From Candidatus Hopanoidivoransaceae bacterium (lineage in GTDB: Bacteria; Actinomycetota; Acidimicrobiia; Acidimicrobiales; Hopanoidiivorantaceae), in NCBI GenBank assembly GCA_965204495.1, contig OZ241989.1:1641214-1705213 (forward strand): a DNA stretch of 64,000 nucleotides, read 5' to 3'. Below, piece by piece: positions 4,375 through 58,808 of the stretch (positions within the stretch are counted from its first letter, which is position 1; every line of letters starts with the position of its first letter). The position numbers and the translations under genes were made by a program. The notes beneath the pieces were generated by a model. The model was not told the DNA's origin and did no database searches. It was given only the letters and a program-made list of their open reading frames with translations.

Positions 4375-4397
4375 GATTTGCCCGCCAGCCCCCACAG

Positions 4398-22481: not shown

Positions 22482-22555
<74 letters not shown>

Positions 22556-22560
22556 CAAAG

Positions 22561-43100: not shown

Positions 43101-46100
43101 ATCTCAGTGGTATCCACGCTCGTAGCCGTGCCGCAAGAAATCGTGTAGCCGCTGCTGGCGGTTTCCGAAACATAATCCGAAGCGTCAATCGTGAAAGTCC
43201 GCAAGTTATTGCCGCGTTCCAGAGTCGGCGCATTGTAGGTGATAGTGCTGTCGGGGCCGACTTTGACTGAAATCGTCCCGTTAGCCGTAGCCCCGCCAGT
43301 AGATGAGTAAGGCACGGTGAAGGTAGCGTTAGTGGCCTGCAGCGTAGAACTCAAGCTGCTTACAGGCGTAACGGTAAACGAGCAGCTGCTGCCGGTGTGG
43401 GTAACCGATGCGAGCCTGGTGGTGTCAATGCTTGTGGCGTCCCCGCAGGTGATCGTGTAGCCGCTGCCGATGGTCTCTCTCGCATAGCTGCCAGCGTTAA
43501 CCACCAGAGCCCGGTTGCGGCCGACCAGCAGCCTGTTCGCCCCAGTAGTCGGCGGGGGAGTGAAAGTTATCGCCGAGTTCGCGCCCACATTGACTGTTAT
43601 CGTCCTGTCTATGCTGTGCCCGCCGGTGGAAGCGAAAGTCACAACGAAAGTAGCAGCACCCGGGAAAGCGAAGTTGTTGGGGTCTATCGTGTAGCGGCAG
43701 GTATTAGCCGTGCGAGCGACCGAGGTCAGCCTTGAATGAATGCTGCGGGCATCCGAGCAAGAAATCGTGTAGCCGCTGCTGGCTTCTGTCACATAATCCG
43801 AAGCGTCAATCTCCAAAGTCAAATTCCGCGCTACCAGCAGCCTGTTGGCCCCGGTAGCAGGCGGTATGTTCGCGGTGATAGTGGAATCCGGGCCGATGTT
43901 CACAGTGAAAGTCCCAGAAGCCGAAGCCCCGCCTGTGGAGGTGTATGGCACAGAGAAAGTCGCATCGCCCTGCGAACCGGTAGCGAGGGTATCCACCGGA
44001 TCAACAGTGAAAGAACAGCCATTGCCAGAAGAGCTGCGCGTGACTGTCATCTTGTTGGCATCCACCCCGGTAGCATCAGCGCAGCTCACCGTATAGGCAG
44101 CGTTCTCCCCGCTTATGGCAGCCAGAGCGTCTATCACCAATGTCCGGTTCCGCCCCAAAGTGAATGTGCTGGGAGCGGTGAAGGTCAGGTTGCTGTCGGG
44201 GCCGATGTTCACAGTAATTGTGCGGGTTATGCTGTGGCCGCCGTCTGATGTGAAGGGGATAGTGAAAGTCGTGGTGCCCTGGTTAGCCGGCGCCAGAGCA
44301 TCAACGGGGTCTATCGTGAAGGTGCAGCTATTGGCAGTGCGAGACACAGCCATCCTCGTGGCAATCACCCCGGTAGCGTCAGCGCAAGTGATGGTGTAGG
44401 CGGAGTTGTCAGAGACATAGCCAGAAGCGTTAATCTCCAAAGTCTGGTTGCGTCCCACTCTCAGAGTCCCAGGAGAGCTGTAGACGATGGTAGAAGGCGG
44501 CCCCACCGTGATGGAGATGTTCTCGCTTGATGTGTCGCCGCCAGCAGAAGTGTAAGGAATAGTAAAGGTGGCTGTGCCCTGCGTGGCAGTAGGCGTGATC
44601 GTGTAGCCGCAGCCGTTCCCGCTGGAATCGCGCACCACCGAAGCCAGAGCCACAGTGCCAGAAGTCGGCACATTAGCCCCGGTGTTAGTGGCTGTGCCGC
44701 AAGTGATGGTGTAGCCGCCGTCTGAGGCATAGTCCAGGGCGTTGATAGTCTGGGTGCGGTTAGTGCCGACCTTCAGTCCTGTAGGAGCAGTGAAGACGAT
44801 GCTGGATGCTGCGCCCACATCTATGCTCAAAGAAGAAGTCAGAGTATGCCCGCCAGAGGAGCGATAGGGGATAGAAATAGTAGCGGTGCCCATGCTGCTA
44901 CCAGAAGTCACAGGAATGCTGCAGCCGGTCTGCGAGCCGAGGCTTATCAAAGCAGACGACTCGGTGATAGCCCCGCAAGAGATCGTATAGCTCCCGTCAG
45001 CAGCGTAAGAGCTCACATCAATTGTGCGGGTTCTGCTGGCAGCGATAGCAGGATTGGAAGCAGGCGGCGTGAAAACGATGGTGCTGTCGGGGCCGACATT
45101 GACCGTAATAGTGCGTGTTATTTCGTGGCCGCCCGAGGAGGTGAAAGTGATAGAGAAAGTAGTGTCGCCTTGCAGGGCTGGGGTCAATGTGGTGATGGGG
45201 GTGATGGTGTAAGAACAGGTATTGGCTGTGCGTGTAACGGAAGTCAGTTTGGTGTTGTCCACCCCAGAGGCGTCTGAGCAGGTGATGGTGTGGCCGCTGC
45301 TGGCTATTTCTTCTACATAGCCCGATGCGTCAATAGTCAATGTCCGGTTCCGCCCCACTGTCAGAGTTCCCGGGCTGCTATAGGTGATAGTGGAATCCGT
45401 GCCCACTGTCACAGGTATAGCTCCGTTCACGCTGTGGCCGCCTTCAGAGGTGTAGGGCACGGTGAAGCTGGCAGAGCCTGCCACATTCTTCGGGGTGATG
45501 GTGAAGGTGCAGGTGTTGGCTGTGCGGGTTACCGACTGCAGCTCTACAGTGTCGATGCTGGTGGCATCCCCGCAGGAGATGGCATAGTTGGTGGGGTTGG
45601 CTTCAACGGCATAAGGGGCCGCATCAACGACTAGGGTGCGGTTCTTGGGCACCAGCAAAGCAGACGGAGGGGTGAATGTGATAGTAGAAGCAGGCCCCAC
45701 CGCAATGGAGAACACAGCGTTTTCGGTGTCGCCTCCGTCAGAGGTCAAAGGCACGGTGAAGCTGGCAGCTCCCTGCTGCGATTGAGTGAGTGTGCTTATC
45801 GGGGTGATCGTGTAGCCGCAGCCGTTCCCAGAAGCATCCCGCACCACAGATGTCAGCCTCGTGGTATCCACGCTGGTGGCTGTGCCGCAGGTAATCGTAT
45901 ATCCGCTGTCCGATGCGTAATCCAGGGCATTGATAGTCTGGGTGCGGTTGATGCCGACCTTCAAGTCAGACGGCGCGGTGAATGAGATATTGGAAGCGCC
46001 CCCCACATCAATGGTGATGCTACGGGTCAAGGTCGCCCCGCCGCTAGAGATATAAGGCACCGAGATAGCAGCAGTGCCAGTGCTGGTGCCGGCAATGATG

Positions 46101-49100
46101 GGGATGCTGCAGCTGCCCTGGGTCTGGTTGCCAAGGCTTATCAAAGCAGAAGACTCCGTGATAGTCCCGCAAGAAATCGTGTAGCTCCCGTCTGCGGCAT
46201 AGCTGCCGACATCCAAAGTCAAAGTGCGGCTGGCAGCCACCGCGGGATTAGACGCAGGAGCAGAGAACACGATAGCCGAAGCAGCACCCACAGTTATCTG
46301 CACAGCTCTGCTAATCGCATGTCCGCCAGTAGATGTATAAGGCACAGTGAAACCAGTAGACCCCTGTGTGCCGTTCAGAACGATCCTGTAGCGACAAGAG
46401 TTAGAAAGACGAGTCACGCTGGTTATCTCAGTGGTATCCACGCTCGTAGCAGTGCCGCAAGAAATGGTGTAGCCGCTGCCGCTAGTCTCGCTCACATAGT
46501 CCGAAGCGTCAATCGTGAAAGTCCGCAAGTTGCTGCCCCGCGCCAAAGTCGGAGCATTGTAGGTGATAGTGCTGTCGGGGCCGACCTTGACTGAGATGAT
46601 CCCGTCAGCTGTAGCCCCGCCGCTGGAAGCATAAGGCACGGTGAAAGTAGCGTTCGTGGCCTGCAGCGAAGAACTCAAGCTGCTCACCGGCGTAACCGTA
46701 AACGAGCAGCTGCTGCCGGTGTGGGTAACAGATGCGAGCCTGGCGGTGTCTATGCTGACAGCGTCCCCGCAGGTAATCGTGTAGCCGCTGCCGCTGGTCT
46801 CGCTCGCATAGCTGCCGGCATCCACCGCCAAAGTCCTATTGCGGCCTACCAGCAGCCTGTTCGCCCCAGAAGTCGGCGGGGCGGTGAAAGTTATCGCCGA
46901 GTTCGGCCCGACATTGACTGTTATCGTCCTGACTATGCTGTGGCCGCCAGTGGAGGTGAAAGTCACAACGAAGGTGGCAGTGCCAGAGGTAGCGGAATTC
47001 ACCGGGTCTATCGTGTAGGTGCATGTGCTGGCCGTGCGTGCGACCGAGGTCAGCCTTGAATGGATGCTGCGGGCATCAGAGCAAGAAATCGTGTAGCCGC
47101 TGCCGCTGGTCTCTGCCACATAATCCGAGGCGTCAATCTCCAAGGTCAGGTTCCGCGCCACCTGCAGCCTGCCCGCCCCGGTAGCAGGCGGAATGTTAGC
47201 GGTGATAGTGGAATCCGGGCCGATGTTCACAGTGAAAGTCCCAGTAGCAGTAGCCCCGCCTGTGGAAGAAAAGGCCACAGAGAAAGTAGTGTCGCCCTGC
47301 GACCCGACCGCCAGGGTATCCACAGGGTCAACAGTGAAGGAGCACCCGTCGCCAGAAGTGCTCCGCGTGACCGTCATCCTCGTGGCATCCGCGCCGGTAG
47401 CGTCGGCGCAGCTCACCGTGTAGGCAGCGTTCTCGCCGCTGATGGCAGCCGATGCGTCTATCACCAATGTCCGGTTCCGCCCCAGAGTGAAAGTCCCCGG
47501 CGCGGTGAAGGTCAGAGCGGAATCGGGGCCGATGTTCACAGTCACCGTGCCCGTGCCGGTAGCTCCGCCGTCAGAGGTGAACGGAATGGTGAAAGTCGTG
47601 GTGCCCTGGTCGCCGGGAGCCAGAGCATCCACAGGGTCTATCGTGAAGTCGCAGCTGCTCCCCGTGTGAGTAACAGCCAGCCTCGCACTAGCCACCCCGG
47701 TTGCATCGCCGCAAGAAATCGTGTAGGCGGCATTGTCAGCCGCATACCCCGAAGCGTCAATCTCCAAAGTCAAGTTCCGCGCCACGCTCAAAGTCCCAGG
47801 AGAGGTATAGACGATGTTGGAAGCCGGCCCCACCTCAATAGCAATAACGCCGTTCTGGGTGTCGCCGCCCGATGAGGTGTAAGGCACGGTGAAGTTGGCT
47901 GTGCCTTGCTGGGCCGGCGTCAAAGTGCTGATCGGGGTGATCGTGTAGCCGCAGCCGTTGCCCGAAGTGTCGCGCACCACCGACGCCAGCCTCGTGGTGT
48001 CCACATTCGTAGCCGTGCCGCAAGAAATAGTGTTGCCGCCGTCAGCCGCATAGTCCGAAGCGTCTATAGTCTGGGTGCGGTTGATGCCGACTTTCAGCCC
48101 GGTCGGAGCGGTAAAGACGATATTGGAAGCGACCCCGACATCCAAAGTCAGAGTCCCCGTGGTGCTGCCGCCGCCGGATGAGGTATACGGGATGGTGATG
48201 TCGGCGGTCTGGGGCGTCGTGGCCACCGAGGTGATCATCACGCTGCAGCCGGTCTGCGTTCCCAAGGTGATGTCGGCATCGGTCGTGGAGATAGTGCCGC
48301 AAGAAATCGTGTAGTTCCCGTCAGTGGCATAAGAACTCACATCAACAGCACGGGTGAGGCTGGCCCCCACCGCAGGATTAGTGGCGGGCGCAGTGAACAT
48401 GGGATCAGAATCAGGGCCGATATTGATCGTGAGGGTGCGGGTTATGGTGTGCCCGCCGGTGGAAGCGAAGGTGATAGCGAAGGTGGTGTCGCCCTGCAAT
48501 GCCGGCGCGAGGCGGTCGGCGGCGTTGGCCTCGCTGTTGCCTACGGGGGCGACAGTGTATTCGCAGGTGTTAGCCGTGCGGGCAACAGCCATTCTGTTGG
48601 CGGCCACGCCTGCGGCATCAGAGCAAGCGATGGTATAGCCGCTGCCCGATATCTCTGAAACATAATCCGAAGCGTCAATCACCAGCGTGAAGTTCCGCCC
48701 GATTTCCAAAGCGCCCGGAGCGGTGTAGGTGATAGTGGAATCAGGGCCGATATTCACGGTGAAAGTCCCCGTAGCGGTATCGCCCCCAGAAGAAGTGAAC
48801 GGCACGGTGAAGCTGGTGTCGCCCTGCGAGCCGGCAACCAGGCTGTTTATAGGATCAACAGTGAAGACGCAGCCATTCCGCGACACCGAGGTCAGCTTGG
48901 TGCTATCCACCCCGGTAGCATCCCCGCAGGTTATGGTGTAGCTGCTGTCTGTGGCATAATCAGTGGCGTCAATAGCGAGCGTGCGGTTGCGCCCCACTTG
49001 CAGACCGGCCGGCGCGTTAAAGACGATGCTGGAAGCAGGCCCCACATTGACAGCAACAGCAGCAGAGCGCACCTCCCCGCTGGTGATACTGAAGTTCACA

Positions 49101-52100
49101 TTGAAAGAAGCCGCGCCCTGCCTGCTCCCGGCGGTGATGATATAGCGGCAGCCCCTCAAAACCACAGAGATCTTGCCGTCTACATCGGTCGGCTCAAAGC
49201 AGAAATAAGTGTTGGCAGTAGAGAGACTGATATGTCTGCTCGCTTCAATCTCTATAGTCCTGCCGGCGGCCACAGACTGGGCGGGGAAGCTGAAAGACCG
49301 AAGATATGTGCCCAGGGATTGCGCCACATTAATGCTGGCTGTAGTCGTGGAGCCCCCAGCCGACCTGAAGCTCACATTAAAGCGGCCGAGGAAAGAAGGC
49401 GAGTAGTCGAAAACGCAGCTGTTGGCAGCGCGGTTGCTGATAGTGCCAGCAGTGGCAGACACAGAAGTGCAGAAAATCTCATAGTCCCCGTCGGTGGCGA
49501 AGCGTGAGAGGTTCACCTTCACACTGTTAGTGAAGAACAGCGTACCGGGAATATTCGTAGTCCGGATATTGGTATCCGGCCCGATATCCACAGTGAATGT
49601 CCCCGTAGTGGAAGACCCGCCAGAGGAGGTGAACATCGCGCTGAAGGTAGTCTCGCCCAGCAAGTTCGCCGCCAGGCTATTAACCGGATTCACCGTATAC
49701 ACGCAGCCTCTGCGAGTAACCGCCATTTTGTCGCTGTCAAAGCCGGTGGCATCCGCGCAGGTGATGGTGTTGGCGCCGTCTTCCACATGGTCGGTGGCGT
49801 CAATCCTCAAAATGCGGTTGCGGGGGACTGCGAGCGCGCCAGGGTCGGTAAACAGAATAGCCACATCGCCGCGGATGTTGACGGTGAAGGTGCCCGTTGT
49901 GCTGCTGCCGCCCTCGGAAGTGAAGACCACTCTGAAGATGGCATTGCCCCACCTGTTGGAAGGCAAGGTGTTCAAGGGATCCACCGTGAAAGCGCAGCCG
50001 TCGCCCGAAGTGCTGCGGGCTACCGACATGCGATATCTTATCAGCCCGAAGCCGATGTTAGGCAAGGTGGATATGTCGAACGCATCCGAGCAAGACACGG
50101 CGTAGGCGGTGTTTTCTCTCACATAGTCCAAAGCATTTATCACCAAAGTCCGGTTCCGCCCCACAGCCGGAACAGCAGGCGCGGTGAAGCTCACGCTGGA
50201 AGGCGGGCCGATGCTGAGATTGACAGTGCCGCTCTGCGTGTCGCCGCCTGTGGAAGTGTAATCCACCACCAAAGTAGCCGCGCCCTGCGCGCTGCCCGCC
50301 GCCAAAGTGAATCTGCAGCCGTTCACCGCAACCGATGTGAGCCTCGCGTGCCGTGTGCTCTGCTGGAAGCCGCACGAGATGGTGTAGCTGCCGTCTGCGG
50401 CATATGCGCCCACATCAATCGTCTTGGTGTTGCCCGCTCCGATCTTCACGGCCGCTGGAGCGGTGAAGACGATATCAGAAACAGGCGTTACGCTCATCGG
50501 AATCACGATGGATCGGGTAGCGCCGCCCGAAGAAGTCACCGGCACCGTGATAGCAACATTCTCCCCCGCTGCCGCAGCTGCTGTAGTTACAGTGAAGACG
50601 CAGTTGTTGCGAACCACCGAAGTGATCTTGGTGCTGTCTATATTGGTGGCATCGGCGCAGGTGAAGGTGTTGGCGCCGTCGGTCACATAGCTGGATGCCG
50701 TGATCTCTATGCTCCGCCCCGCCACCACCGACAGATCAGTGGGAGCTGTGTAGACGATGTTGTTTACATTCACGGTGAATGTGCCCGTGCCCGTGGCGCC
50801 GCCGCTGGAAGAATAAGGCACGGTGAAAGTCCCGTCGCCTGTGGAGGCCGTGCTGGCAATAGTAAACATGCAGCCGTTGCCAGAAGTGCTTCGCACCACC
50901 GAGGAGAACTTGGTGCTGTCAACGCCGGTGGCATCGCCGCAGGTGATCGCGTAAGGCCCGTCCGTAGCAGCGCCAGAGGCGTCTACCACCACCGTGCTGC
51001 TGGCGGACACGAACAGATTCTGCGGCGCGTTGAACGCGATGCTGGAAGCGGGCAGTATCCGCACCGTGACCACGCCGTTCACCTGGGTCGCTCCAGCCGA
51101 AACCTGCGTATAAGGCACATTGAAAGTAACATTTTCAAAAGCACGGCTGATAGGGCTAGGAGCCGGAGCTGTGACATAATACGAGCAGCCCGAACGGGTG
51201 ATAGTGAGCTTGCTGTCGTCTATAGCCGGGCCAGTGGCATCAGCGCAAGTAGCGGCATAATCCGAGCCGGTGAAATAGCTAGCGGCATTCACATAGACGC
51301 TCTCGCCCCCGGCCTGCACAGGCACCACTAATGGGGGAGCGAAGACGATATCCCCAGAAGCAGGCACAGCCATGGCATCCTGGCAGGCAACGGGGTTGAA
51401 GCCTTCGGAGATGGGATAGTCCTGCAGCACATATTGGCTGCTGGCGGTCTGCTGCAAGCCTGTCGGCAATGCTCCGGTGAAGTAGTTCCCGCAGATATAC
51501 ACCTGCCTCACCCCGGTGAATCTATTGCCTGCAGGATTGAGCGTTACCAGATTGCCCACAGCAGCAGGAATAGCACCGGTGAACTGGTTGTTGCTCAAGT
51601 CCAGCCTGAACAGATTCGTGAGACTGGATACACCAGCCGGTACGGAACCCGACAGCCTGTTGCCCTCCAGATCCAAAGTTACAAGGCTGGTGAGCGAACC
51701 TATCCCCGAAGGAATGCTCCCGGTGAGCAGGTTGTTGCTCAGCAGCAGATTCCTCATGGCGGTGAGCGAAGTCAGCTGCGAAGGAATAGAACCAGACAGG
51801 CGATTGCCGCTCAAGTTAAGATGCGTGAAAGCAGTGCTGGAAAGCGAACCCAACTGGCTCGGAATGCTCCCGGTGAGCTGGTTGCTGTCGAGATTCAGCT
51901 GCCTCAGATTGGAAAGCGAGCCCAACTGGCTGGGAATGCTCCCCGAGAGCTCATTACGATGCAGCGACAAGAACTGCAGGCTGCTGAGGTTGCCCAACTC
52001 AGAAGGAATCGGCCCCGAGAAATTATTGTCCGACAGATTAACATCATTCAAAGCAGACATAGACCCCAGCCACGAAGGAATATTCCCGGACAGCATGTGA

Positions 52101-55100
52101 TCGTCAGCTTCCAGCCTCTCCAGCGCAGTCAAATTCTGTATCTCGCTAGGCAAAGTCCCATGCACTATCGTGAATTGGCCCCCTACCGTACTCCTGGTGG
52201 CACTTATCACGAAATCGGTCACACGCCCGCCCGTCACCGTGATACCGATCCAATTCTGAACCAGCCTGTCCGAAGCCGTGCCCGTGCCCCACTCGACAGA
52301 AGCATCCCCCCACTCGCGAAACGCGTGAAACTCGGCCAAATCCCGGTTCGCTTCAAACCCGGCGAAATGATTCTGGATAGCCACCAGAGTCATGCAATCC
52401 TCAGCCAGATCGTTGTTAGCCCCCGTGACTCTCGGATTAGTCGTGAGATTCACGAAAGTCCCGTCCGTGCAACCCGCATTGCTCAAAAGCGGTATAGCCG
52501 TGCCCGACACCGCCCTGCTCACAGACAAAGTAATAGTGCCGGTAAGAGTGTCGCCCCCGCTAGAGGTATAAGGCACCGAAATCGCAGCCGTGCCCGCACC
52601 AGAAACAGCGGTGATGGGAACAACGCAGCCGCTTTGCGTGCCGAGGCTTATCAAAGCAGACGACTCCGCAATAGCCCCGCAAGAAATCGCATAATCGCCG
52701 TCCGCCGCGTAGCTGCTCGCATCCAGCACCAGCACCCGCCCCGCCAGCACCGACAAACTCCCCGCGCCTGTCGTGGGCGGAGCCGTGAAAACAATATCCG
52801 AAAGCGGGCGAATCAGCACAGAAATCACCCCGTCCGCAGAACCGCCCCTGCTGGAGCCATACGGCACAGTGAAACCAGCCGTGCCGCCCGCCCCCGCCCT
52901 AGCAGTAGCAGTAAACGAACAGCCGTTCCCGCCAGAATCGCGCACCACGCTCTGCCACAAAGACGAAACGCTCTCAGCATCACCGCAAGAAATCGTGTAG
53001 CTGCCGTCTGAAGCGTAAGCCGAAGCGTCAATCACGATGCTCTTCGTAGCCTCCACATTCAAACCCGAAGGAAAGCCCGCCACAGGAGCAGTAAAGACGA
53101 TATTAGCAGCCGCGCCCACAACCACAGGCACCACCCCGCTGACCGTAGCCCCCGTCTCAGAAGTATAAGGCACCGTGAAACTAGCCGCGCCCAGCGACGA
53201 GCCAGCAGTAACCCTGAACTCGCAAGTATCGCCCACACGCGCCACCGACGCGATCCTGGCGGTATTAGCAGTCGAATCGCCGCAAGTGACCCCCCAGAAA
53301 CCGCCATCAGTAGCATAGCTAGAAACATCAAACACCAAAGTCCCGCCCGCGCCGATAGCCAGAGCAGAAGGAGCCGTGAAAACCAGATTCCGAGCAGGCC
53401 CCACGCTCACAGGAATCACAGCCTGCCGAGTGTCGCCGCCAGCAGAAGAGTAAGTGATAGTGAAACTAGCCGAACCCGAAGCAGTGCCCGAAGAAGTGGT
53501 GGCGGTGAAAGTGCAAGAACTGCCCGTATGAGCAACCGAAGCCAGATTGCTGGTGAGCGCGCTGGCATCCGAACAAGTCAAAGCATAACTGCCGTCCGCC
53601 GCGAAACCGCCAGCATCAATCTCCAAAGTCCTGCTGCCAGCCTCAATGCGCAGATCGGCAGGAGCGGTATAGGCGATAATGCTGTCAGTGCCGATGTTTA
53701 TAGTGAAAGTGCCTGTAACAGTCGCGCTGCCCGTGGAAGTGAATTCCACAGAAAAAGTAGTATCGCCCTGATAGGACTGGGCGAGAGCGTTTTCGGGATC
53801 AACAGTGAAAGAACACCCATCGCCGGAAGTGCTGCGGGTTACTGTCATCCTGACGGCATCCACGCCTGTGGCATCAGCGCAGGTCACCGTGTATACGCCG
53901 GTTTCTGTGATCTGATCCAAGGCGTCAATCACCAGCGTGTAGTTCCGCCCAACCGTCAGAGTAGGCAGCGCAGTGAAAGCGAGAGTGCTGTCGGGGCCGA
54001 TATTGACAGTGAAAGTGCCTGTAGTCGTGGCACCGCCCGAAGAGGTGAAAGGCACAGAGAAAGTAGTGTCGCCTTGGTCGGCCGGCATCAAGGTGTCTAC
54101 GGGATCTATCGTGAAAGAACAGCTGCTGCCAGTGTGGGTAACAGTCATCTTCGTGGTATCCACTCCGGTGGCATCGCCGCAGGAGAAGGTGAAGCTGCCG
54201 TCGGTCGCGTAGCTGGAAGCGACAAAAGTCCGAGTGCGGTTCCGGGCCACTGTCAGAGTTCCCGGGTCGCTTAAGACAATGTTGGAGTCCGCGCCGATGT
54301 TTATTGTGAAAGTGCCGGTAGTGGTCGTTCCGCCTGTGGTAGTGAAGAGCACAGAGAAAGTCGTATCGCCTTGGTTGGCCGGCGTCAAGGTGTCTACAGG
54401 ATCAACGGTGAAAGAACAGCCATCGCCTGAAGTGCTGCGAGTGACAGTCATCTTGGTGGCATCCACGCCTGTGGGGTCAGCGCAGGTAACCGTGTGCCCG
54501 GTGTTCTCAGAGACATGATCCAAAGCGTCAATAACCAGCGTGTAGTTCCGCCCCACTGTCAGAGTAGACGGAGCAGTGAAAGAGAGATTGGAATCGGGGC
54601 CGATATTGACAGTAACCGTGCCCGTAGTGCTATGCCCGCCGCCTGAGGTGTAAGGAATGGTGAAAGTAGTATCGCCTTGGTTGGCCGGCGCCAGAGTGTC
54701 AACGGGGTCTATCGTGAAATTGCAGCTGCTGCCAGTGTGCGTAACAGCCAGCTTGTTGGCATCCACCCCGGTAGCGTCACCGCAGGTAACCGTGTAGGCG
54801 GGGTCCTCAGTCACATAGCCCAAAGCGTCTATCGCCAAAGTCTGATTCCGCCCGACCGTCAAAGTTCCAGGAGCGGTGTAAGCGACAGTAGATTCAGGGC
54901 CTACTTCAATGCTGATAGTGCCGTTCTCGGTGTCGCCGCCAGTTGAAGTGTAAGGCACCACGAAGCTAGCCGCGCCCTGAACTTGCTTGGGCGTTACAGT
55001 AAACACGCAGCCGCTGCGCGACACCGACATCAGCTCTGTGGTGTCAATGCTGGTGGCGTCCCCGCAAGTGATCGTGAAGTCGCTGTTAGCCTCAGTCGCG

Positions 55101-55927
55101 TAGTCCAACGCGTTGATCGTCTGCGTTCGGTTCGTGCCCACCTTCAACCCAGAAGGCGCGGTGAAGGTGATATTTGAAGCAGTGATCACACGCACAGTAA
55201 CAGTGCCCGTGTGGGTGTCGCCCCCGCTAGAGGTATAAGGAATCGAAATATTGGCGGTGCCCGTGGTGGAGCCGGCATTTACAGTAACATCGCAGCCCTG
55301 CTGATTGGAAAGGCTTATCAGGGCGGACGACTCGGTGATAGTCCCGCAAGTAATCGTGTAGCCGCCGGTGGAAGGACTGCTGTCAGAAGCATAAGTGTCC
55401 ATGCTGAGATTAAGCGAACCGCCGGCTTGGATAGTCGGGGCAGGCGAAGGCGCATTGAAAGTAATATCAGAGTTTCGAACGCAAAGTCGCCAAGTGCCGA
55501 AATCCCTCGTGCCACCACCTTGATGACCCCTCACCTCTCGGCCGCTGACTGCTAGATTTTCGCAGCCAACAGAGGCTGCAGTTTTGGCAGTTACCGTGAC
55601 TCTACAGCGGTTGATAGATACCGTAAACCTGGAAGTTGAAGGAACACTAACCGAACACTGAACATGCCAGTCTTGACCAGGAAAGTTTCTAGCATTAGAG
55701 CTGGTAGCGGGCACATCAACAGTTCTGCTTCCCCCTGGTGCTAATGTAAAACCACCGGCCCAACTGCCTCCGACGTATCCTGCCGCAGGCTGAGACACAG
55801 CCACCGAAACAGCAAATAGCAAAGCCGCGAACAAAGCCGCCGACACGAGCGAAGCGACAACCTTGCGAAGAGCCCGCCGTGCCAGCCGCGCATCACACTG
55901 GGGGGGGGTCTTACGCAGCGACTTCAT
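37199..55927 (-). CDS. Giant (6,242 aa) secreted/surface repeat protein: ~55 two-Cys ~97-aa modules + internal plant-type LRR block + Pro/Thr linker + unassigned C-terminal domain
   Basis: A single uninterrupted ORF of 18,729 nt. It has an N-terminal hydrophobic signal/anchor (VVASLVSAALFAALLFAVSVAVS). The module consensus read by eye is FTAP..L.VGRNRT..IDA..Y......YTI(S/T)C(G/A)DATG.....L.SV.R....C.FT(I/V).P.......G..TF.VPYTS.GG....G..TV.IGP.S.I. Confidence 0.85.
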   Translation of the reverse strand: MKSLRKTPPQCDARLARRALRKVVASLVSAALFAALLFAVSVAVSQPAAGYVGGSWAGGFTLAPGGSRTVDVPATSSNARNFPGQDWHVQCSVSVPSTSRFTVSINRCRVTVTAKTAASVGCENLAVSGREVRGHQGGGTRDFGTWRLCVRNSDITFNAPSPAPTIQAGGSLNLSMDTYASDSSPSTGGYTITCGTITESSALISLSNQQGCDVTVNAGSTTGTANISIPYTSSGGDTHTGTVTVRVITASNITFTAPSGLKVGTNRTQTINALDYATEANSDFTITCGDATSIDTTELMSVSRSGCVFTVTPKQVQGAASFVVPYTSTGGDTENGTISIEVGPESTVAYTAPGTLTVGRNQTLAIDALGYVTEDPAYTVTCGDATGVDANKLAVTHTGSSCNFTIDPVDTLAPANQGDTTFTIPYTSGGGHSTTGTVTVNIGPDSNLSFTAPSTLTVGRNYTLVIDALDHVSENTGHTVTCADPTGVDATKMTVTRSTSGDGCSFTVDPVDTLTPANQGDTTFSVLFTTTGGTTTTGTFTINIGADSNIVLSDPGTLTVARNRTRTFVASSYATDGSFTFSCGDATGVDTTKMTVTHTGSSCSFTIDPVDTLMPADQGDTTFSVPFTSSGGATTTGTFTVNIGPDSTLAFTALPTLTVGRNYTLVIDALDQITETGVYTVTCADATGVDAVRMTVTRSTSGDGCSFTVDPENALAQSYQGDTTFSVEFTSTGSATVTGTFTINIGTDSIIAYTAPADLRIEAGSRTLEIDAGGFAADGSYALTCSDASALTSNLASVAHTGSSCTFTATTSSGTASGSASFTITYSSAGGDTRQAVIPVSVGPARNLVFTAPSALAIGAGGTLVFDVSSYATDGGFWGVTCGDSTANTARIASVARVGDTCEFRVTAGSSLGAASFTVPYTSETGATVSGVVPVVVGAAANIVFTAPVAGFPSGLNVEATKSIVIDASAYASDGSYTISCGDAESVSSLWQSVVRDSGGNGCSFTATARAGAGGTAGFTVPYGSSRGGSADGVISVLIRPLSDIVFTAPPTTGAGSLSVLAGRVLVLDASSYAADGDYAISCGAIAESSALISLGTQSGCVVPITAVSGAGTAAISVPYTSSGGDTLTGTITLSVSRAVSGTAIPLLSNAGCTDGTFVNLTTNPRVTGANNDLAEDCMTLVAIQNHFAGFEANRDLAEFHAFREWGDASVEWGTGTASDRLVQNWIGITVTGGRVTDFVISATRSTVGGQFTIVHGTLPSEIQNLTALERLEADDHMLSGNIPSWLGSMSALNDVNLSDNNFSGPIPSELGNLSSLQFLSLHRNELSGSIPSQLGSLSNLRQLNLDSNQLTGSIPSQLGSLSSTAFTHLNLSGNRLSGSIPSQLTSLTAMRNLLLSNNLLTGSIPSGIGSLTSLVTLDLEGNRLSGSVPAGVSSLTNLFRLDLSNNQFTGAIPAAVGNLVTLNPAGNRFTGVRQVYICGNYFTGALPTGLQQTASSQYVLQDYPISEGFNPVACQDAMAVPASGDIVFAPPLVVPVQAGGESVYVNAASYFTGSDYAATCADATGPAIDDSKLTITRSGCSYYVTAPAPSPISRAFENVTFNVPYTQVSAGATQVNGVVTVRILPASSIAFNAPQNLFVSASSTVVVDASGAATDGPYAITCGDATGVDSTKFSSVVRSTSGNGCMFTIASTASTGDGTFTVPYSSSGGATGTGTFTVNVNNIVYTAPTDLSVVAGRSIEITASSYVTDGANTFTCADATNIDSTKITSVVRNNCVFTVTTAAAAAGENVAITVPVTSSGGATRSIVIPMSVTPVSDIVFTAPAAVKIGAGNTKTIDVGAYAADGSYTISCGFQQSTRHARLTSVAVNGCRFTLAAGSAQGAATLVVDYTSTGGDTQSGTVNLSIGPPSSVSFTAPAVPAVGRNRTLVINALDYVRENTAYAVSCSDAFDISTLPNIGFGLIRYRMSVARSTSGDGCAFTVDPLNTLPSNRWGNAIFRVVFTSEGGSSTTGTFTVNIRGDVAILFTDPGALAVPRNRILRIDATDHVEDGANTITCADATGFDSDKMAVTRRGCVYTVNPVNSLAANLLGETTFSAMFTSSGGSSTTGTFTVDIGPDTNIRTTNIPGTLFFTNSVKVNLSRFATDGDYEIFCTSVSATAGTISNRAANSCVFDYSPSFLGRFNVSFRSAGGSTTTASINVAQSLGTYLRSFSFPAQSVAAGRTIEIEASRHISLSTANTYFCFEPTDVDGKISVVLRGCRYIITAGSRQGAASFNVNFSITSGEVRSAAVAVNVGPASSIVFNAPAGLQVGRNRTLAIDATDYATDSSYTITCGDATGVDSTKLTSVSRNGCVFTVDPINSLVAGSQGDTSFTVPFTSSGGDTATGTFTVNIGPDSTITYTAPGALEIGRNFTLVIDASDYVSEISGSGYTIACSDAAGVAANRMAVARTANTCEYTVAPVGNSEANAADRLAPALQGDTTFAITFASTGGHTITRTLTINIGPDSDPMFTAPATNPAVGASLTRAVDVSSYATDGNYTISCGTISTTDADITLGTQTGCSVMITSVATTPQTADITIPYTSSGGGSTTGTLTLDVGVASNIVFTAPTGLKVGINRTQTIDASDYAADGGNTISCGTATNVDTTRLASVVRDTSGNGCGYTITPISTLTPAQQGTANFTVPYTSSGGDTQNGVIAIEVGPASNIVYTSPGTLSVARNLTLEIDASGYAADNAAYTISCGDATGVASARLAVTHTGSSCDFTIDPVDALAPGDQGTTTFTIPFTSDGGATGTGTVTVNIGPDSALTFTAPGTFTLGRNRTLVIDASAAISGENAAYTVSCADATGADATRMTVTRSTSGDGCSFTVDPVDTLAVGSQGDTTFSVAFSSTGGATATGTFTVNIGPDSTITANIPPATGAGRLQVARNLTLEIDASDYVAETSGSGYTISCSDARSIHSRLTSVARTASTCTYTIDPVNSATSGTATFVVTFTSTGGHSIVRTITVNVGPNSAITFTAPPTSGANRLLVGRNRTLAVDAGSYASETSGSGYTITCGDAVSIDTARLASVTHTGSSCSFTVTPVSSLSSSLQATNATFTVPYASSGGATADGIISVKVGPDSTITYNAPTLARGSNLRTFTIDASDYVSETSGSGYTISCGTATSVDTTEITSVTRLSNSCRYRIVLNGTQGSTGFTVPYTSTGGHAISRAVQITVGAASAIVFSAPASNPAVAASRTLTLDVGSYAADGSYTISCGTITESSALISLGNQTQGSCSIPIIAGTSTGTAAISVPYISSGGATLTRSITIDVGGASNISFTAPSDLKVGINRTQTINALDYASDSGYTITCGTATSVDTTRLTSVVRDASGNGCGYTITPISTLTQSQQGAASFTVPLTSDGGDTENAVFSIAVGPASTITFTPPSALLVPKNRTLVVDAAPYAVEANPTNYAISCGDATSIDTVELQSVTRTANTCTFTITPKNVAGSASFTVPYTSEGGHSVNGAIPVTVGTDSTITYSSPGTLTVGRNRTLTIDASGYVEEIASSGHTITCSDASGVDNTKLTSVTRTANTCSYTITPITTLTPALQGDTTFSITFTSSGGHEITRTITVNVGPDSTIVFTPPASNPAIAASRTRTIDVSSYAADGSYTISCGAITESSALISLGSQTGCSIPVTSGSSMGTATISIPYRSSGGHTLTSSLSIDVGAASSIVFTAPTGLKVGTNRTQTINALDYASDGGYTITCGTATNTGANVPTSGTVALASVVRDSSGNGCGYTITPTATQGTATFTIPYTSAGGDTSSENISITVGPPSTIVYSSPGTLRVGRNQTLEINASGYVSDNSAYTITCADATGVIATRMAVSRTANSCTFTIDPVDALAPANQGTTTFTIPFTSDGGHSITRTITVNIGPDSNLTFTAPSTFTLGRNRTLVIDALAAISGENAAYTVSCADATGVDANKMTVTRSSSGNGCSFTVDPVDTLATGSQGDATFSVPYTSTGGASASGTFTVNIGPDSTITANIPPATGANRLLVARNLTLEIDASDYVTEASSGYTISCSDARSIHSRLTSVARTANTCRYTIDPNNFAFPGAATFVVTFASTGGHSIDRTITVNVGANSAITFTPPPTTGANRLLVGRNRALVVNAGSYARETIGSGYTITCGDATSIDTTRLASVTHTGSSCSFTVTPVSSLSSTLQATNATFTVPYSSTGGATANGTISVKVGPDSTITYNAPTLERGNNLRTFTIDASDYVSETASSGYTISCGTATSVDTTEITSVTRLSNSCRYRIVLNGTQGSTGFTVPYTSTGGHAISRAVQITVGAASSIVFSAPSSNPAVAASRTLTLDVSSYATDGSYTISCGTITEFSALISLGAQTGCSIPITAATSTGTAFISVPYISSGGATTTRSISIDVGVASNIQFTAPSDLKVGINRTQTINALDYATDSGYTITCGTATSIDTTKLTSVARDSSGNGCGYTITPISTLTQSQQGSANFTVPLTSDGGDTENAVFSITVGPASTITFTPPSPALSVAKNRTITVDVSGYAVEANPTNYAISCGDATSIDTVELQSVTHTGRSCTFTINPKNVAGSASFTVPYTSEGGHSVAGAISVTVGPDSNIVYTPPTGLRVARNRTLEIDATDHFTESSTYTVTCGDATGIDNTRLTSVARTANTCTFTVDPVDTLAAGLQGNTTFTVPLSSTGGHARNALFTVNVGPDSNIVFAAPTGLKVGRNRTLAINALAAVTENPAYTVTCADATGVSANRMTVTRSSTGSRCVFTVDPVDTLATGLQGNTTFAVAFTSTGGATASGTFTVNIGPDSTITYNAPTGLLVGRNRTLTIDASGYVSESDSNNTITCGDATAIHSRLTSVARTANSCSYTIDPNNFATVGTATFAIAFTSDGGHTRTETISVEVGPDSNIRFTAPPTSGPNRLRIGRNLTLSIDALDYVNENAAYTVTCGDATGVDAARLTVTHTGSSCDFTIDPVDTLAQSLQGNTSFTIPYTSDGGATATGRITVNIGPDSAITFTAPTGLKIGRNRTLVIDALAAVSGENAAYTVSCADATGVDANRMTVTRSSSGSRCSFTVDPVDTLAVGSQGDTTFVVAFSSTGGATASGTFTVNIGPDSAIVYTAPAGLQVGRNRTLSVDLSNAATDGSYTVTCGDATNVHSRLSSVTRPDAQASPCVFAAAPRTTASLGTATFRVPFTSDGGATSTGTVSIAISQPSTIVFTAPDPALKIGINRTRTIDALDYVRDGNYTITCLDATGVDSTKLTSVTRSSSGNGCGYTINPISSLTQSQQGDATFTVPYRSAGGHVLNQEFTIGVGPASTIVYTAPVGANALTVGHNRTLTIDASSYATDGSYTISCGDARSIHARIDHITRNGCSFTITPVSGMTGAATFTIPYSSDGGHTRDGQVSVTIGAASNIVYSAPSGIVIPVSTARTIDVGSYAADGSYAISCGDATGVNASRLASVTHTGSSCSFEITAAANQGATSFVVPYRSAGGAALSGTISLSVGPASSIVFTAPSGLDVHVGETLLVHANDYASDGPYSLQCADATNRSASLTSVVRTANTCDFTITPGSSTGTGTFNVPYTSSGGATHTGTISVNISPQSTITFTAPTGLSVAAGRQITVDASTAADTGYTVSCGDATAVNPRIASVSRTGCSYAVRAGSIAGSASFTIPFTSTGGATLNSQIAITIGPRSSIAFTAPTGLSVQIGSTLTIDASDYAADSAYTITCGDATGVPSVFASVARTANTCNFVVTPGTSTGSGSFTVPYSSSGGATRNGSITVAVTPTSSIVFAPPPISGPDRLRIGAGNTRTISLASYATDGPYSITCGNATATEPAKLTDIHRNGCRYTITAAATAAQGNTTFTLTYTSSGGNTNNASFTINIGPASDIVYTAPADITLQANSAQGIDLSSYATDGTGNDAYTIGCLDATDIDPEISSVTRNGCVYTIRAGSTPGEADFHITYTSTGGDTHLATVHITITPAPVEPEERPAGPIQPIDPPARRPTPPPPTTTTTTTIPDPSRPTTTLEPDQPGPRWNTLTAQQGGTTPGQIRQAFNLGSTQTIYTWNTARQTWTRATRSSQAIPAGTRVSFRTEEAVTNREMRTSNLGGGTTRMRLTTGWSTLSIPQGITRTDDTDFLLDPTLTDCRNQQGIIAIASYSTRSRRWSISLPCHPTAQRRLTTGENAPYRPLMSIAPADTTYIFTRTRQPLTIRWNEDTQTYQVFQSIFTR
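51470..52500 (-). other. LRR block inside the giant ORF: LRRNT-like cap plus ~9-10 plant-specific-type 24-residue LRRs
   Basis: Approximate residues 1150-1485. The sequence reads ...NWIGITVTGGRVTDFVIS... then LTALERLEADDHMLSGNIPSWLGS / MSALNDVNLSDNNFSGPIPSELGN / LSSLQFLSLHRNELSGSIPSQLGS / LSNLRQLNLDSNQLTGSIPSQLGS, and so on. Confidence 0.8.
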
Positions 55928-56599: not shown

Positions 56600-56925
56600 A
56601 GCGGGCGGGCATATGACTGCCGAGTGCTGCTCAGAATTCTAGAAGGCTGTATTAGGGTTTTGCTGTTTCAGACTTGACAATCTCTCTTTTATGTGCTAAA
56701 GTGATCATGTGAAGAAAATGTGCCACAGCAAAATAGAGGAGAAGTTCCTCTTTCTGACCCGCAGCAGAGCCAATCTGCTGTGTCTGGCTTGCAGCATGGT
56801 GTGGAAGTTGAAGCAAGAAGTATCAACGAAGCAGTGCCGAGGGGTTGCCACGCAATTGACAGTTGTGGTAGAGATAACTGCCAGTGTTTGTATATTTGTA
56901 CAAAGATGTCTACAGAAAGGTTCGG

Positions 56926-58764: not shown

Positions 58765-58808
58765 ATACAACCCATAATCCCCAATAGTCGTGATATTTGG
58801 AGAGTCCT

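What the first reader, a model, noticed from the sequence alone, without database searches (positions are those of the whole stretch)
51470..52500. Plant-specific-type LRR receptor-like ectodomain embedded in the middle of the bacterial repeat protein
Between modules 10 and 11 the ORF switches to a Cys-flanked cap (CTDGTF...DCMTLVAIQNHF...NWIGITVTGGRVTDFVIS). About 9-10 repeats of exactly the 24-residue plant LRR-RLK/PGIP consensus L..L..L.L..N.L(S/T)G.IP..LG. follow, for example LSSLQFLSLHRNELSGSIPSQLGS. The block ends ...YICGNYFTGALPTGL...ACQD. The W-x-G(I/V)-x-(V/C)...RVT-x-L cap is also plant-like. An internal, rather than terminal, eukaryote-like LRR cassette inside a bacterial Ig-like array is unusual. 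It suggests domain capture and a protein-ligand binding centre held out on two long stalks.
Basis: partly seen in the sequence, partly recalled or inferred. Interest (0 to 1): 0.6.

Follow-up and report, generated by a model that had tools for sequence, protein, structure and literature searches.

The report
LRR cassette in giant bacterial protein
The plant-receptor-style leucine-rich-repeat block is real, but it is a standard, disulfide-capped bacterial building block that a small group of probably sponge-associated Acidimicrobiia insert many times over into giant Ig-like surface proteins, not a one-off capture of a plant gene.

Summary
A 384-aa insert (aa 1141-1524 of a 6,242-aa minus-strand ORF, window 51356-52507) carries 8 canonical 24-residue plant-specific-class LRR units plus irregular end units, between two Cys-pair caps. 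By sequence and AF2 model its nearest solved structures are all plant LRR-RLK/PGIP ectodomains.

- The N-cap is not Pfam LRRNT_2.
- GC3 is native.
- The closest sequences are bacterial.
- The capped cassette recurs with stereotyped junctions in homologous giant proteins.

One 2.29-Mb Acidimicrobiales MAG holds at least 55 cassettes, up to ten per ORF, and the family fills at least 7% of that genome. Of 27 large array proteins found in 1.84 billion representatives, 16 carry cassettes.

All relatives of traceable habitat come from Agelas sponges. The 96-aa array module is a divergent two-Cys Big_9/cadherin-like Ig domain. The C-terminal ~190-aa domain is new and unassigned.

New here: between the window protein and a close homologue, replacements concentrate on the concave xxLxLxx positions (13/40 vs 6/154, p=2e-6; dN/dS 1.7 vs 0.14). 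This marks the cassette as a fast-evolving binding face. Verdict: an undescribed variant of bacterial LRR surface proteins, of moderate interest.

The parts
37199..55927 (-). Giant ORF, 6,242 aa. Order: N-terminal hydrophobic export signal, 11 Ig-like modules, capped LRR cassette, 45 Ig-like modules, P/T-rich linker, C-terminal domain.
   Evidence: A close homologue, P0139 (7,058 aa), has the same architecture M10-[cassette]-M53-CTD.
55778..55927 (-). N-terminal ~50 aa: basic n-region plus a 22-residue hydrophobic stretch (VVASLVSAALFAALLFAVSVAV), then SQPAAG. Presumed Sec signal peptide or signal anchor.
   Evidence: Read directly from the translation. Small paralogues have typical signal peptides. 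Export itself is inferred.
52508..55756 (-). Modules 1-11 (aa 58-1140): ~96-aa repeats with two invariant Cys. They are divergent Big_9/cadherin-like bacterial Ig domains.
   Evidence: Self-HMM and alignment A5. The profile hits Big_9/Cadherin_5 arrays over nearly its full length. No Pfam hit above cut-off on the modules themselves.
52133..52495 (-). Cassette N-cap (aa 1145-1265): IPLLSNAGC-TDGTFV...ANNDLAEDC-MTLVAIQNHF...NWIGITVTGGRVTDFVIS plus an irregular first rung. Cys1153 (52469-52471) and Cys1178 (52394-52396).
   Evidence: The cap is conserved in bacterial relatives. It is not LRRNT_2. AF2 predicts a helix at insert residues 33-49, then beta strands.
51551..52132 (-). Eight canonical plant-specific-class LRR units (aa 1266-1459), consensus LTxLxxLxLxxNxLSGSIPSxLGS. 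The concave xxLxLxx positions are hypervariable.
   Evidence: dN/dS is 1.73 on concave positions against 0.14 elsewhere. Entropy among paralogues is 1.13 vs 0.56 bits.
51356..51550 (-). Cassette C-cap (aa 1460-1524): two degenerate rungs, then VYIC-GNYFTGALPTGL...DYPISEGFNPVAC-QD. Cys1479 (51491-51493) and Cys1515 (51383-51385).
   Evidence: The motif F-x-F-C-x-N-x-L-T-G...Y-P...G-Y-x-P-[IV]-x-C-Q is conserved in family cassettes, and a related form occurs in SLH-type proteins. The AF2 tail has low confidence.
37940..51355 (-). Modules 12-56 (aa 1525-5996), contiguous with no linkers. They include a ~9-module segmental duplication (aa 2596-3512 vs 3703-4619, 82.7% nt identity).
37793..37939 (-). 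P/T-rich linker (aa ~5997-6045), including a TTTTTTT run.
   Evidence: Read from the translation. Equivalent linkers precede the CTD in P0072, P0058 and P0135.
37202..37792 (-). C-terminal domain (CTD, ~190 aa) with invariant W/C/P positions (C120 and C145 of alignment A4). No known family. Presumed envelope-attachment or sorting domain.
   Evidence: 44-55% identical CTDs end the small and large family members. No Pfam, NCBIfam or PDB match. Only 5 further database hits. The AF2 model is poor, pLDDT 54.9.

Best explanation
The block is one copy of a self-contained, double-disulfide-capped LRR cassette: N-cap, about 7-13 plant-specific-class repeats, then C-cap. The cassette is a standard interchangeable building block of a narrow family of secreted, Cys-rich, giant mosaic surface proteins in Acidimicrobiia-like bacteria that appear to live in sponges. 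Family members string divergent Big_9-type Ig modules and these cassettes together at fixed module boundaries, and end in a family-specific C-terminal domain. In the window's protein the Ig modules act as a long spacer. The single cassette presents its concave beta-sheet as a protein-binding surface, most likely for a host (sponge) or neighbouring-cell ligand. That surface changes fast between strains and paralogues.

Shown: anatomy, family membership, repeat class, native composition, recurrence, hypervariable concave face.

Inferred: export, surface display, anchoring through the CTD, and the identity of the ligand.
For: Anatomy:
- 56 contiguous modules with one clean 384-aa insert.
- PS-class repeat consensus.
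- Confident solenoid model, pLDDT 86.7 and pTM 0.87, superposing on plant ectodomains.

The cassette is a bacterial module:
- P0072, P0058 and four adjacent genes in L001 consist of signal peptide, 1-2 capped cassettes, P/T linker and the same CTD.
- SLH-anchored proteins share related N- and C-caps.

Recurrence inside giant arrays:
- A cap-pattern scan of 185,579 species genomes hit only MAG OY282367.1 (Acidimicrobiales), with 22 matches.
- Its ORFs are mosaics M(n)-[cassette]-M(n) with up to 10 or more cassettes.
- Junctions are stereotyped...VISLVIG|AVPTLAATGCTDGTFVD and ...GYTPIACQ|NAVSNIVFTAP.
- The MAG holds at least 55 cassettes, and the family fills at least 7.2% of the genome.

The family is narrow: the module profile finds 212 of 1.84 billion representatives, and 16 of 27 large ones carry cassettes.

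Native composition.

Binding face:
- Window protein vs P0139/L018: replacements 13/40 on concave positions vs 6/154 elsewhere, Fisher p=2.2e-6.
- dN/dS is 1.73 vs 0.14, against 0.19 and 0.08 for the modules.
- Paralogue entropy is 1.13 vs 0.56 bits, p=8e-6.

Habitat of relatives:
- Agelas dispar and A. tubulata tissue metagenomes.
- An actinobacterial CrgA gene is a neighbour.
- LRR domains are statistically enriched in sponge-symbiotic Acidimicrobiia (PMC11706023).
Against: - The window's own habitat and taxon are not established. Its assemblies (ERZ26167708, ERZ25070167) are not in the reef database, and the best named genome is only 52-58% identical in the cap.
- No ligand, expression or localisation data exist.
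- dN/dS above 1 rests on one pair with few changes (20.2 non-synonymous, 2.8 synonymous). P0139 has different flanking genes, so it may be a paralogue or a recombinant.
- Among paralogues omega is 0.23 on the concave positions, not above 1.
- The CTD's role is a guess: no homology and a poor model.
- An ancient plant-bacterium exchange of the PS-type repeat cannot be excluded (Miyashita et al. 2013, cited).
Confidence: 0.7

Rival explanations
1. One reading: a eukaryotic (plant-type) LRR receptor ectodomain was captured by horizontal transfer and inserted once into a bacterial Ig-like adhesin.
For: - The repeat class and the nearest solved structures are plant LRR-RLK/PGIP.
- The literature proposes plant-bacterium HGT of PS-LRRs (Miyashita et al. 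2013, reference seen).
- Sponge-symbiont LRR proteins are commonly called 'eukaryotic-like' and are thought to be HGT-derived (PMC11706023).
Against: - The N-cap is not LRRNT_2, and both caps are shared with bacterial proteins.
- GC3 is native.
- The LRR core is 46-50% identical to several bacterial groups against a median of 37% for plants.
- The top 120 database hits are mostly bacterial-type architectures with SLH, T9SS tail, fn3 or dockerin.
- The cassette occurs dozens of times in related giant proteins with fixed junctions, so the insertion in this gene is intra-family shuffling.
Confidence: 0.07
2. The cassette binds non-host targets. Examples: self-association or cell-cell aggregation in the symbiont consortium, capture of food polymers or enzymes (PGIP-like inhibition), or a decoy or sensor against phages and predators.
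For: - LRR solenoids bind very diverse ligands, and PGIP and an ice-binding protein are among the structural matches.
- Fast change of the binding face fits antagonistic co-evolution with phage or grazers as well as with a host.
- Related cassettes occur on SLH-, dockerin- and T9SS-linked proteins of bacteria not known as symbionts.
Against: - Every family member of traceable origin is from sponge tissue.
- LRR enrichment tracks the symbiotic lifestyle in Acidimicrobiia.
- No enzyme or toxin domain is present in the protein.
Confidence: 0.18
3. The giant ORF or its insert is an assembly or annotation artefact: a collapsed repeat, a chimera or a pseudogene.
For: Long repetitive genes are prone to misassembly. 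In the related contig L015 the CTD is split from the main ORF. High-GC antisense ORFs overlap the region.
Against: - The reading frame is open for 18.7 kb.
- The same architecture appears in an independent assembly (P0139/L018).
- Purifying selection acts on the modules (omega 0.08-0.19).
- The insert sits exactly at a module boundary.
Confidence: 0.02

Closest known systems
Plant LRR-RLK / RLP / PGIP ectodomains (plant-specific LRR class)
   Same: 24-residue unit LxxLxxLxLxxNxL(S/T)GxIPxxLGx. The solenoid superposes on ERL1, FLS2, MIK2 and PGIP. Disulfide-bonded caps flank the repeats. The variable xxLxLxx face is hypervariable.
   Different: The N-cap is not LRRNT_2, and its Cys pair lies upstream of the helix. 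The C-cap motif (FxFCxNxLTG...GYxPxxCQ) differs. There is no transmembrane helix or kinase. The cassette is embedded in a bacterial Ig array, and its nearest sequences are bacterial.
Bacterial proteins with plant-specific-class LRRs (catalogued by Miyashita, Kuroki, Kretsinger & Matsushima 2013; e.g. Xanthomonas XopAC/AvrAC)
   Same: PS-type repeats in a bacterial protein. Partial NCBIfam hits to the XopAC and XopAE LRR regions.
   Different: The scores are far below family cut-offs (73 vs 450 bits). There is no Fic or effector domain. This protein is Sec-exported and surface-displayed rather than a type III effector. It also has the double-capped cassette and the giant mosaic context.
'Eukaryotic-like proteins' (LRR class) of sponge symbionts, enriched in symbiotic Acidimicrobiia (Poriferisodalaceae/TK06, UBA11606)
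   Same: Same Pfam LRR families, same bacterial class and the same habitat for relatives. Multi-domain proteins carrying several such domains are reported.
   Different: Published work counts Pfam domains. I found no description of the capped cassette, the two-Cys Ig module, the CTD, the giant mosaics or the concave-face hypervariability.
Listeria internalins and other LRR-plus-Ig-like bacterial surface proteins
   Same: An LRR binding domain joined to Ig-like domains and a C-terminal wall-association region. The concave face binds a host receptor.
   Different: Internalins have 22-residue units, an N-terminal helical cap, a terminal LRR domain and LPXTG/GW anchors. Here the units are 24-residue PS type, the position is internal, no LPXTG is present, and the NCBIfam internalin_A score is 43 against a 1600 cut-off.
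Giant repetitive adhesins with Big-domain extenders (e.g. RTX adhesins such as MpIBP, SiiE, LapA; from general knowledge)
   Same: Tens of Ig-like extender domains hold ligand-binding modules away from the cell.
   Different: Those are Gram-negative, T1SS-secreted and Ca2+-stiffened, with binding modules near one end. Here there is an N-terminal signal, disulfide-containing modules without the DxDxD motif, LRR cassettes interspersed along the array, and a novel CTD.

Membership tests
Plant-specific (PS) class of LRR (Kobe & Kajava / Matsushima classification) | Repeat length of 24 residues | tested here: met
   Seven of the spacings between eight canonical units are 24 aa and one is 26.
Plant-specific (PS) class of LRR (Kobe & Kajava / Matsushima classification) | Consensus LxxLxxLxLxxNxL(S/T)GxIPxxLGx in the variable segment | tested here: met
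   Consensus LTxLxxLxLxxNxLSGSIPSxLGS. 6/8 units match the PS pattern, 0/8 match 'typical' and 1/8 match SDS22-like.
Plant-specific (PS) class of LRR (Kobe & Kajava / Matsushima classification) | Solenoid geometry like solved PS-LRR proteins | tested here: met
   The AF2 model (pLDDT 86.7) gives plant ectodomains as top Foldseek hits: ERL1 at rmsd 1.2 A over 240 columns, and PGIP.
Pfam LRRNT_2 (PF08263), the plant-type LRR N-terminal cap | Profile match above the gathering score (20.7 bits), with the C-x-W-x-G-V-x-C Cys pair after the helix | tested here: not met
   No hit at E<=10 for the window's cap or for two relatives' caps. The controls P0014 (30.5 bits) and Acorus P0034 (48.7 bits) do hit. 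The Cys pair lies at 1153/1178, upstream of and at the start of the helix.
Plant LRR receptor-like kinase / receptor-like protein | Single-pass transmembrane helix (with or without a kinase) after the ectodomain | tested here: not met
   The cassette is followed directly by Ig-like module 12. No kinase or other Pfam domain is present.
Acidimicrobiia mosaic family described here (module / capped cassette / CTD) | N-cap motif C-x-DG-x-[FY]-V...ANNDL-x-x-DC-x-x-LVA-x-QN...W-x-G-[IV]-x-V...RV | tested here: met
   45-56% identity to family caps, with 29 invariant columns. The HMM places it at aa 1145.
Acidimicrobiia mosaic family described here (module / capped cassette / CTD) | C-cap with Cys in the last rung and a terminal ...P-[IV]-x-C-Q | tested here: met
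   VYICGNYFTGALP...NPVACQ aligns with family C-caps.
Acidimicrobiia mosaic family described here (module / capped cassette / CTD) | Arrays of the ~96-aa two-Cys module, with the cassette placed at module boundaries | tested here: met
   56 modules with the insert at the 11|12 boundary. Modules are 38-55% identical to those of the MAG. The same layout appears in P0139 and in 16/27 large relatives.
Acidimicrobiia mosaic family described here (module / capped cassette / CTD) | C-terminal ~190-aa CTD after a P/T-rich linker | tested here: met
   aa 6040-6241. It is 44-55% identical to the CTDs of L001, the MAG ORFs, P0058 and P0134.
Internalin family (NCBIfam NF033189 and relatives) | Whole-protein score above cut-off; 22-residue units; LPXTG or GW anchor | tested here: not met
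   43 bits against a cut-off of 1600. Units are 24 residues. No LPXTG near the C-terminus.
XopAC/AvrAC type III effector (NCBIfam NF041381) | Whole-protein score above cut-off, with a Fic domain | tested here: not met
   73 bits against a cut-off of 450, matching only the LRR part. No Fic domain.
Bacterial Ig-like domain Big_9 / cadherin-like (for the array module) | Homology to Pfam Big_9 (PF17963) domains | tested here: inconclusive
   No direct Pfam hit above cut-off on the window's modules. However, the module profile matches 19 consecutive repeats of P0209 over nearly its full length (per-domain E 2e-8 to 5e-5, whole-protein E 3e-46). Pfam calls those same repeats Big_9/Cadherin_5. No structure was predicted for the module.
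Sponge-symbiont 'eukaryotic-like protein' (operational class) | Pfam LRR_1/LRR_4/LRR_8 domain in a genome of a sponge symbiont | tested here: inconclusive
   The Pfam criterion is met. Relatives come from Agelas sponge tissue. The window's own source could not be traced.

The most novel reading that the evidence does not exclude
The capped LRR cassettes form a combinatorial, hypervariable surface-recognition repertoire. Dozens of cassettes per genome are shuffled at fixed junctions into giant Ig-like scaffolds. Their concave faces diversify under positive selection between strains. This would be a bacterial analogue of plant RLP/R-gene or lamprey VLR diversity, used by sponge symbionts to recognise, or avoid recognition by, their host or phages. 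The family consumes more than 7% of a 2.3-Mb genome.
Probability: 0.25. Interest if true: 0.7.

Novelty: new variant of a known kind. Interest (0 to 1): 0.45.

Why it matters
LRR 'eukaryotic-like proteins' are a recurring but mechanistically opaque signature of sponge symbionts. This locus and its relatives turn a Pfam count into defined parts that can be tested:
- a capped cassette that can be expressed on its own;
- a mapped hypervariable binding face;
- a scaffold module;
- a candidate anchoring domain.

The result also shows that plant-receptor-like repeats in a bacterial giant protein need no recent transfer from a eukaryote. Finally, it identifies three sequence families absent from Pfam and NCBIfam: the caps, the two-Cys module and the CTD.

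Tried and rejected
- Homology search with the N-cap alone returned only three short fragments, because of the word-index limit. The CTD-profile search returned five. Neither gave taxonomy.
- The first cap alignment (A1) was too diverse for the genome scan. A2 worked.
- The AF2 model of the CTD was poor (pLDDT 54.9), so I ran no fold search on it. The CTD fold remains unknown.
- The afdb50 fold library was unavailable, so I obtained no taxon-labelled structural neighbours.
- Model coordinates are not exposed. I could not check disulfide distances or the 3D position of the variable residues.
- Accession strings are absent from paper full texts. ERZ26167708 and ERZ25070167 are absent from the reef-database supplement, so the window's habitat is unresolved.
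- The P0143 look-up found no contig.
- The LRR region of the syntenic orthologue in L015 lies outside the fetched flank. The dN/dS test therefore used P0139/L018, whose flanks differ from the window's.
- The listing of cluster members gave no names.
- Codon-usage correlation of the LRR block with other genes (0.64) is lower than the control mean (0.80+-0.09) but within the control range. I judged this uninformative, given the small, compositionally skewed sample.
- I considered and rejected membership of the internalin and XopAC families, and an assembly artefact.

Full report
OBSERVATION

The window holds a single 18.7-kb ORF on the minus strand (37199..55927, 6,242 aa). An HMM trained on the protein's own repeats finds 56 modules of about 96 aa that abut one another without linkers. 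The only interruption is a clean 384-aa insert, aa 1141-1524 (window 51356-52507). It falls exactly at the boundary of modules 11 and 12, or 10 and 11 if the degenerate first module is ignored.

It has eight canonical repeats starting at aa 1266, 1290, 1314, 1338, 1364, 1388, 1412 and 1436. Seven spacings are 24 residues and one is 26. The consensus is LTxLxxLxLxxNxLSGSIPSxLGS. Six of eight units fit the plant-specific pattern, none fits the 'typical' pattern and one fits SDS22-like. An irregular first rung and two degenerate last rungs complete about eleven rungs. The insert has exactly four cysteines, two in each cap: 1153 and 1178, then 1479 and 1515. Pfam scores LRR_1 at 5.7e-29, LRR_8 at 1.7e-18 and LRR_14 at 2.1e-19.

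REPEAT CLASS

Against all PDB sequences, the best matches are exclusively plant LRR-RLK ectodomains: GSO1 at 5.6e-131, then FLS2, PEPR1, TDR, MIK2 and BRI1. An AlphaFold2 model of the insert, built with ten homologues, is confident (pLDDT 86.7, pTM 0.87). Its best Foldseek matches are again plant ectodomains and PGIP, for example ERL1 at rmsd 1.2 A over 240 columns with 40% identity.

THE CAPS ARE NOT THE PLANT CAPS

Two positive controls score 30.5 and 48.7 bits against a cut-off of 20.7. The cysteine pair sits before and at the start of the cap helix (C-TDGTFV...ANNDLAEDC-MTLVAIQNHF), not in the plant C-x-W-x-G-V-x-C position. Only the last strand (W-x-G-I-x-V...RV) resembles the plant cap, and this is the part that aligns to PEPR1 and HPCA1. 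The C-cap carries a Cys inside the last rung, then ...YP...G[FY]xP[IV]xCQ. It is likewise shared with bacterial proteins.

NO SIGN OF RECENT FOREIGN ORIGIN

- GC3 of the insert is 0.676. Sliding windows of the same gene give 0.677+-0.040, and thirteen other genes of the window give 0.682.
- The LRR core is 46-50% identical to several unrelated bacterial groups: the family itself, SLH-anchored proteins, T9SS-tailed proteins, and named Anaerolineae, Chloroflexota and Acidobacteria. Named plants reach a median of 37% and a best of 45%.
- Of the 120 best database hits, most carry bacterial partner domains (SLH, Por_Secre_tail, fn3, dockerin, Big). Only a handful are plant proteins.

THE CASSETTE IS A FAMILY BUILDING BLOCK

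The hits that cover the whole query, caps included, are bacterial. P0072 and P0058 consist of signal peptide, capped cassette, P/T-rich linker and a ~190-aa C-terminal domain (CTD). That CTD is 47-54% identical to the C-terminus of the window protein. P0002 has two cassettes in tandem. Locus L001 has four adjacent paralogues, each with one or two cassettes, and three of them carry the CTD.

A pattern scan of one genome per 185,579 species with the cap alignment found 22 confirmed matches. All lie in one genome, the 2.29-Mb MAG OY282367.1, 'uncultured Acidimicrobiales bacterium'. Its loci contain ORFs longer than 6,756 aa that run off both ends of the fetched DNA. These ORFs are made of the same module (38-55% identity) interrupted by the same capped cassettes. 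Where the ORF end is visible, they finish with the same CTD (50-55% identity).

Architectures read M15-[cas]-M16-[cas]-M11-[cas]-M12-[cas]-M4 (L010), or carry ten or more cassettes (L004, L005), some in tandem. The junctions are stereotyped...GVISLVIG|AVPTLAATGCTDGTFVD at the N side and ...GYTPIACQ|NAVSNIVFTAP at the C side. Counted on unique coordinates, the fetched loci alone hold at least 55 cassettes and at least 164.5 kb of family domains, or 7.2% of that chromosome.

An exhaustive profile search with the window's own modules against 1.84 billion representative proteins finds only 212 proteins at E<=1e-3, and 87 at E<=1e-30. Of the 27 large ones, 16 carry at least one capped cassette. P0139 (7,058 aa) has the same layout as the window protein, M10-[cassette]-M53-CTD. 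Fragments P0090, P0131 and P0133 are further module-to-cap junctions.

SCAFFOLD AND C-TERMINUS

The module has no Pfam hit above threshold. Its profile, however, matches 19 consecutive repeats of P0209 over nearly its full length, and Pfam annotates those repeats as Big_9/Cadherin_5/K319L-PKD. I therefore read the module as a divergent bacterial Ig-like domain that has gained two invariant cysteines. I did not predict its structure.

The CTD has no Pfam, NCBIfam or PDB relative and only five further database hits. Its AF2 model is unreliable. It follows a P/T-rich linker at the C-terminus, the position that SLH domains occupy in the related SLH-type LRR proteins. This suggests an envelope-attachment or sorting role, but that is inference only.

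ORGANISM AND HABITAT

The window's neighbours are ordinary bacterial metabolic genes: MeaB, CoA-transferase, amidohydrolases, SBP_bac_5 and RmuC. L015, from another assembly, is syntenic. It has a 6,847-aa LRR-bearing giant gene followed by RmuC, ADC, adh_short, two Amidohydro_2 genes and SBP_bac_5.

The habitat of the window's own assemblies could not be traced. Every relative with traceable metadata comes from sponge tissue. L001 and L016 are from Agelas dispar (St Croix). L017 is from a second A. dispar sample. P0140, with nine cassettes, is from A. tubulata (Grand Cayman) and lies next to the actinobacterial gene crgA (metadata from the supplement of PMC13083261).

Published comparative genomics reports significant enrichment of LRR, cadherin, fn3 and Calx-beta domains in sponge-symbiotic Acidimicrobiia relative to free-living sister lineages (PMC11706023). 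Plant-specific-class LRRs in bacteria are also an established topic (Miyashita et al. 2013, reference seen). I found no description of this architecture.

HOW IT PROBABLY WORKS

I compared the window protein with P0139, whose gene DNA is in L018.
- Modules 2-11 differ at 2.9% of residues, the N-cap at 0% and the LRR units at 8.7%.
- In the eight canonical units, 13 of 40 concave xxLxLxx positions are replaced against 6 of 154 other positions (Fisher p=2.2e-6).
- Nei-Gojobori dN/dS is 1.73 on the concave positions, 0.14 on the rest of the LRR, 0.19 on modules 2-11 and 0.08 on module 12.

Among 19 distinct seven-unit paralogous cassettes of the MAG, the same positions have twice the entropy (1.13 vs 0.56 bits, p=8e-6). 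Pairwise omega there is 0.23, with synonymous sites near saturation. The concave sheet is thus the variable face, as in plant receptors and internalins. Positive selection is suggested by the close pair but not proven. The counts are small, and P0139 has different flanking genes, so it may be a paralogue or a recombinant.

My working model has five steps:
1. The protein is exported through its N-terminal signal (inferred from sequence).
2. It is stabilised by disulfides in every module and in both caps (inferred from invariant Cys).
3. It is held at the envelope by the CTD (speculative).
4. The Ig array acts as a long spacer.
5. The cassette is a rapidly evolving protein-binding site, most likely aimed at a sponge or neighbouring-cell ligand (inferred from habitat and the literature).

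'Two stalks' is a fair description of this one protein, with 11 modules on one side of the cassette and 45 on the other. The family as a whole is better described as beads on a string.

VERDICT

The feature is real, and its repeat class was correctly recognised. The ideas of an unusual one-off capture and of a plant-like cap are not supported.

What is present is an undescribed variant of bacterial LRR surface proteins. It is a narrow, heavily expanded family of giant mosaics, built from a two-Cys Ig module, a double-capped PS-type LRR cassette and a novel CTD. The LRR binding face is hypervariable.

I rate interest as moderate (0.45). Sponge-symbiont LRR proteins and bacterial PS-LRRs are both known. 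The defined cassette, the scale of the expansion and the selection signal make a long-standing vague category experimentally tractable.

Noticed in passing
window 56884-58764 (+), within the low-GC stretch 57001-59000: GC drops to 0.43 against ~0.58 elsewhere. The stretch carries a 626-aa gene with Schlafen AlbA_2 and HATPase_c_4 domains. It sits immediately upstream of the giant gene and looks like a horizontally acquired island, possibly a regulator or defence gene.
   Followed up: no
window 42071-48139 (-): aa 2596-3512 vs aa 3703-4619 of the giant ORF: A ~2.8-kb segmental duplication of about nine modules at 82.7% nucleotide identity. The array grows by block duplication.
   Followed up: partly
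window 37202-37792 (-); also L001, L003, L008, L013, L014, P0058, P0134-P0138: The ~190-aa C-terminal domain, with invariant Trp/Cys/Pro positions, has no Pfam, NCBIfam or PDB relative. It is very rare in the databases, and its AF2 model is poor. It is a candidate new anchoring or sorting domain.
   Followed up: partly
window 55472-55756 (-), aa 58-152 (first, degenerate module after the signal peptide): The N-terminal tip differs at 20% of residues from the close homologue P0139, against 2.9% for modules 2-11. It is a second fast-evolving region, at the presumed distal end.
   Followed up: no
window 51356-52507 (-) vs L018: Synonymous divergence is mosaic between the two homologues: dS is 0.011 in the N-cap, 0.154 in the LRR units and 0.09 in modules 2-11. 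This hints at recombination or gene conversion inside the gene.
   Followed up: no
L003-L014 (MAG OY282367.1; e.g. contig 158-242 kb): An ~84-kb stretch of a 2.29-Mb Acidimicrobiales chromosome is almost entirely giant mosaic genes of this family. In total the family takes up at least 7.2% of the genome, with at least 55 LRR cassettes.
   Followed up: yes
L001 889-11947; L016 10001-21662: Agelas dispar metagenome contigs carry clusters of small paralogues (signal peptide, 1-2 capped cassettes, with or without the CTD) and no Ig array. These are a 'minimal' form of the family.
   Followed up: partly
L015 1-10351: In the syntenic orthologous locus, the last 116 aa of the CTD are called as a separate gene, about 540 bp after the 6,847-aa ORF. 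This is probably a frameshift or a low-coverage long-read error rather than biology. Three extra genes (NYN, DNA_alkylation and a 129-aa ORF) lie between it and RmuC and are absent from the window.
   Followed up: no
window 51434-53011 (+) and other + strand ORFs of 170-525 aa between 40 and 54 kb: Long antisense ORFs overlap the giant gene. They are most likely artefacts of high GC and repetitive coding sequence, not genes.
   Followed up: no
whole giant ORF: The composition is extreme: Thr 15.8%, Ser 11.8%, Lys only 0.6% (37 of 6,242) and Cys 1.9%, with two Cys per module.
   Followed up: no
window 22482-22556 (+): A single tRNA-Met (CAT) gene is the only tRNA in the window.
   Followed up: no
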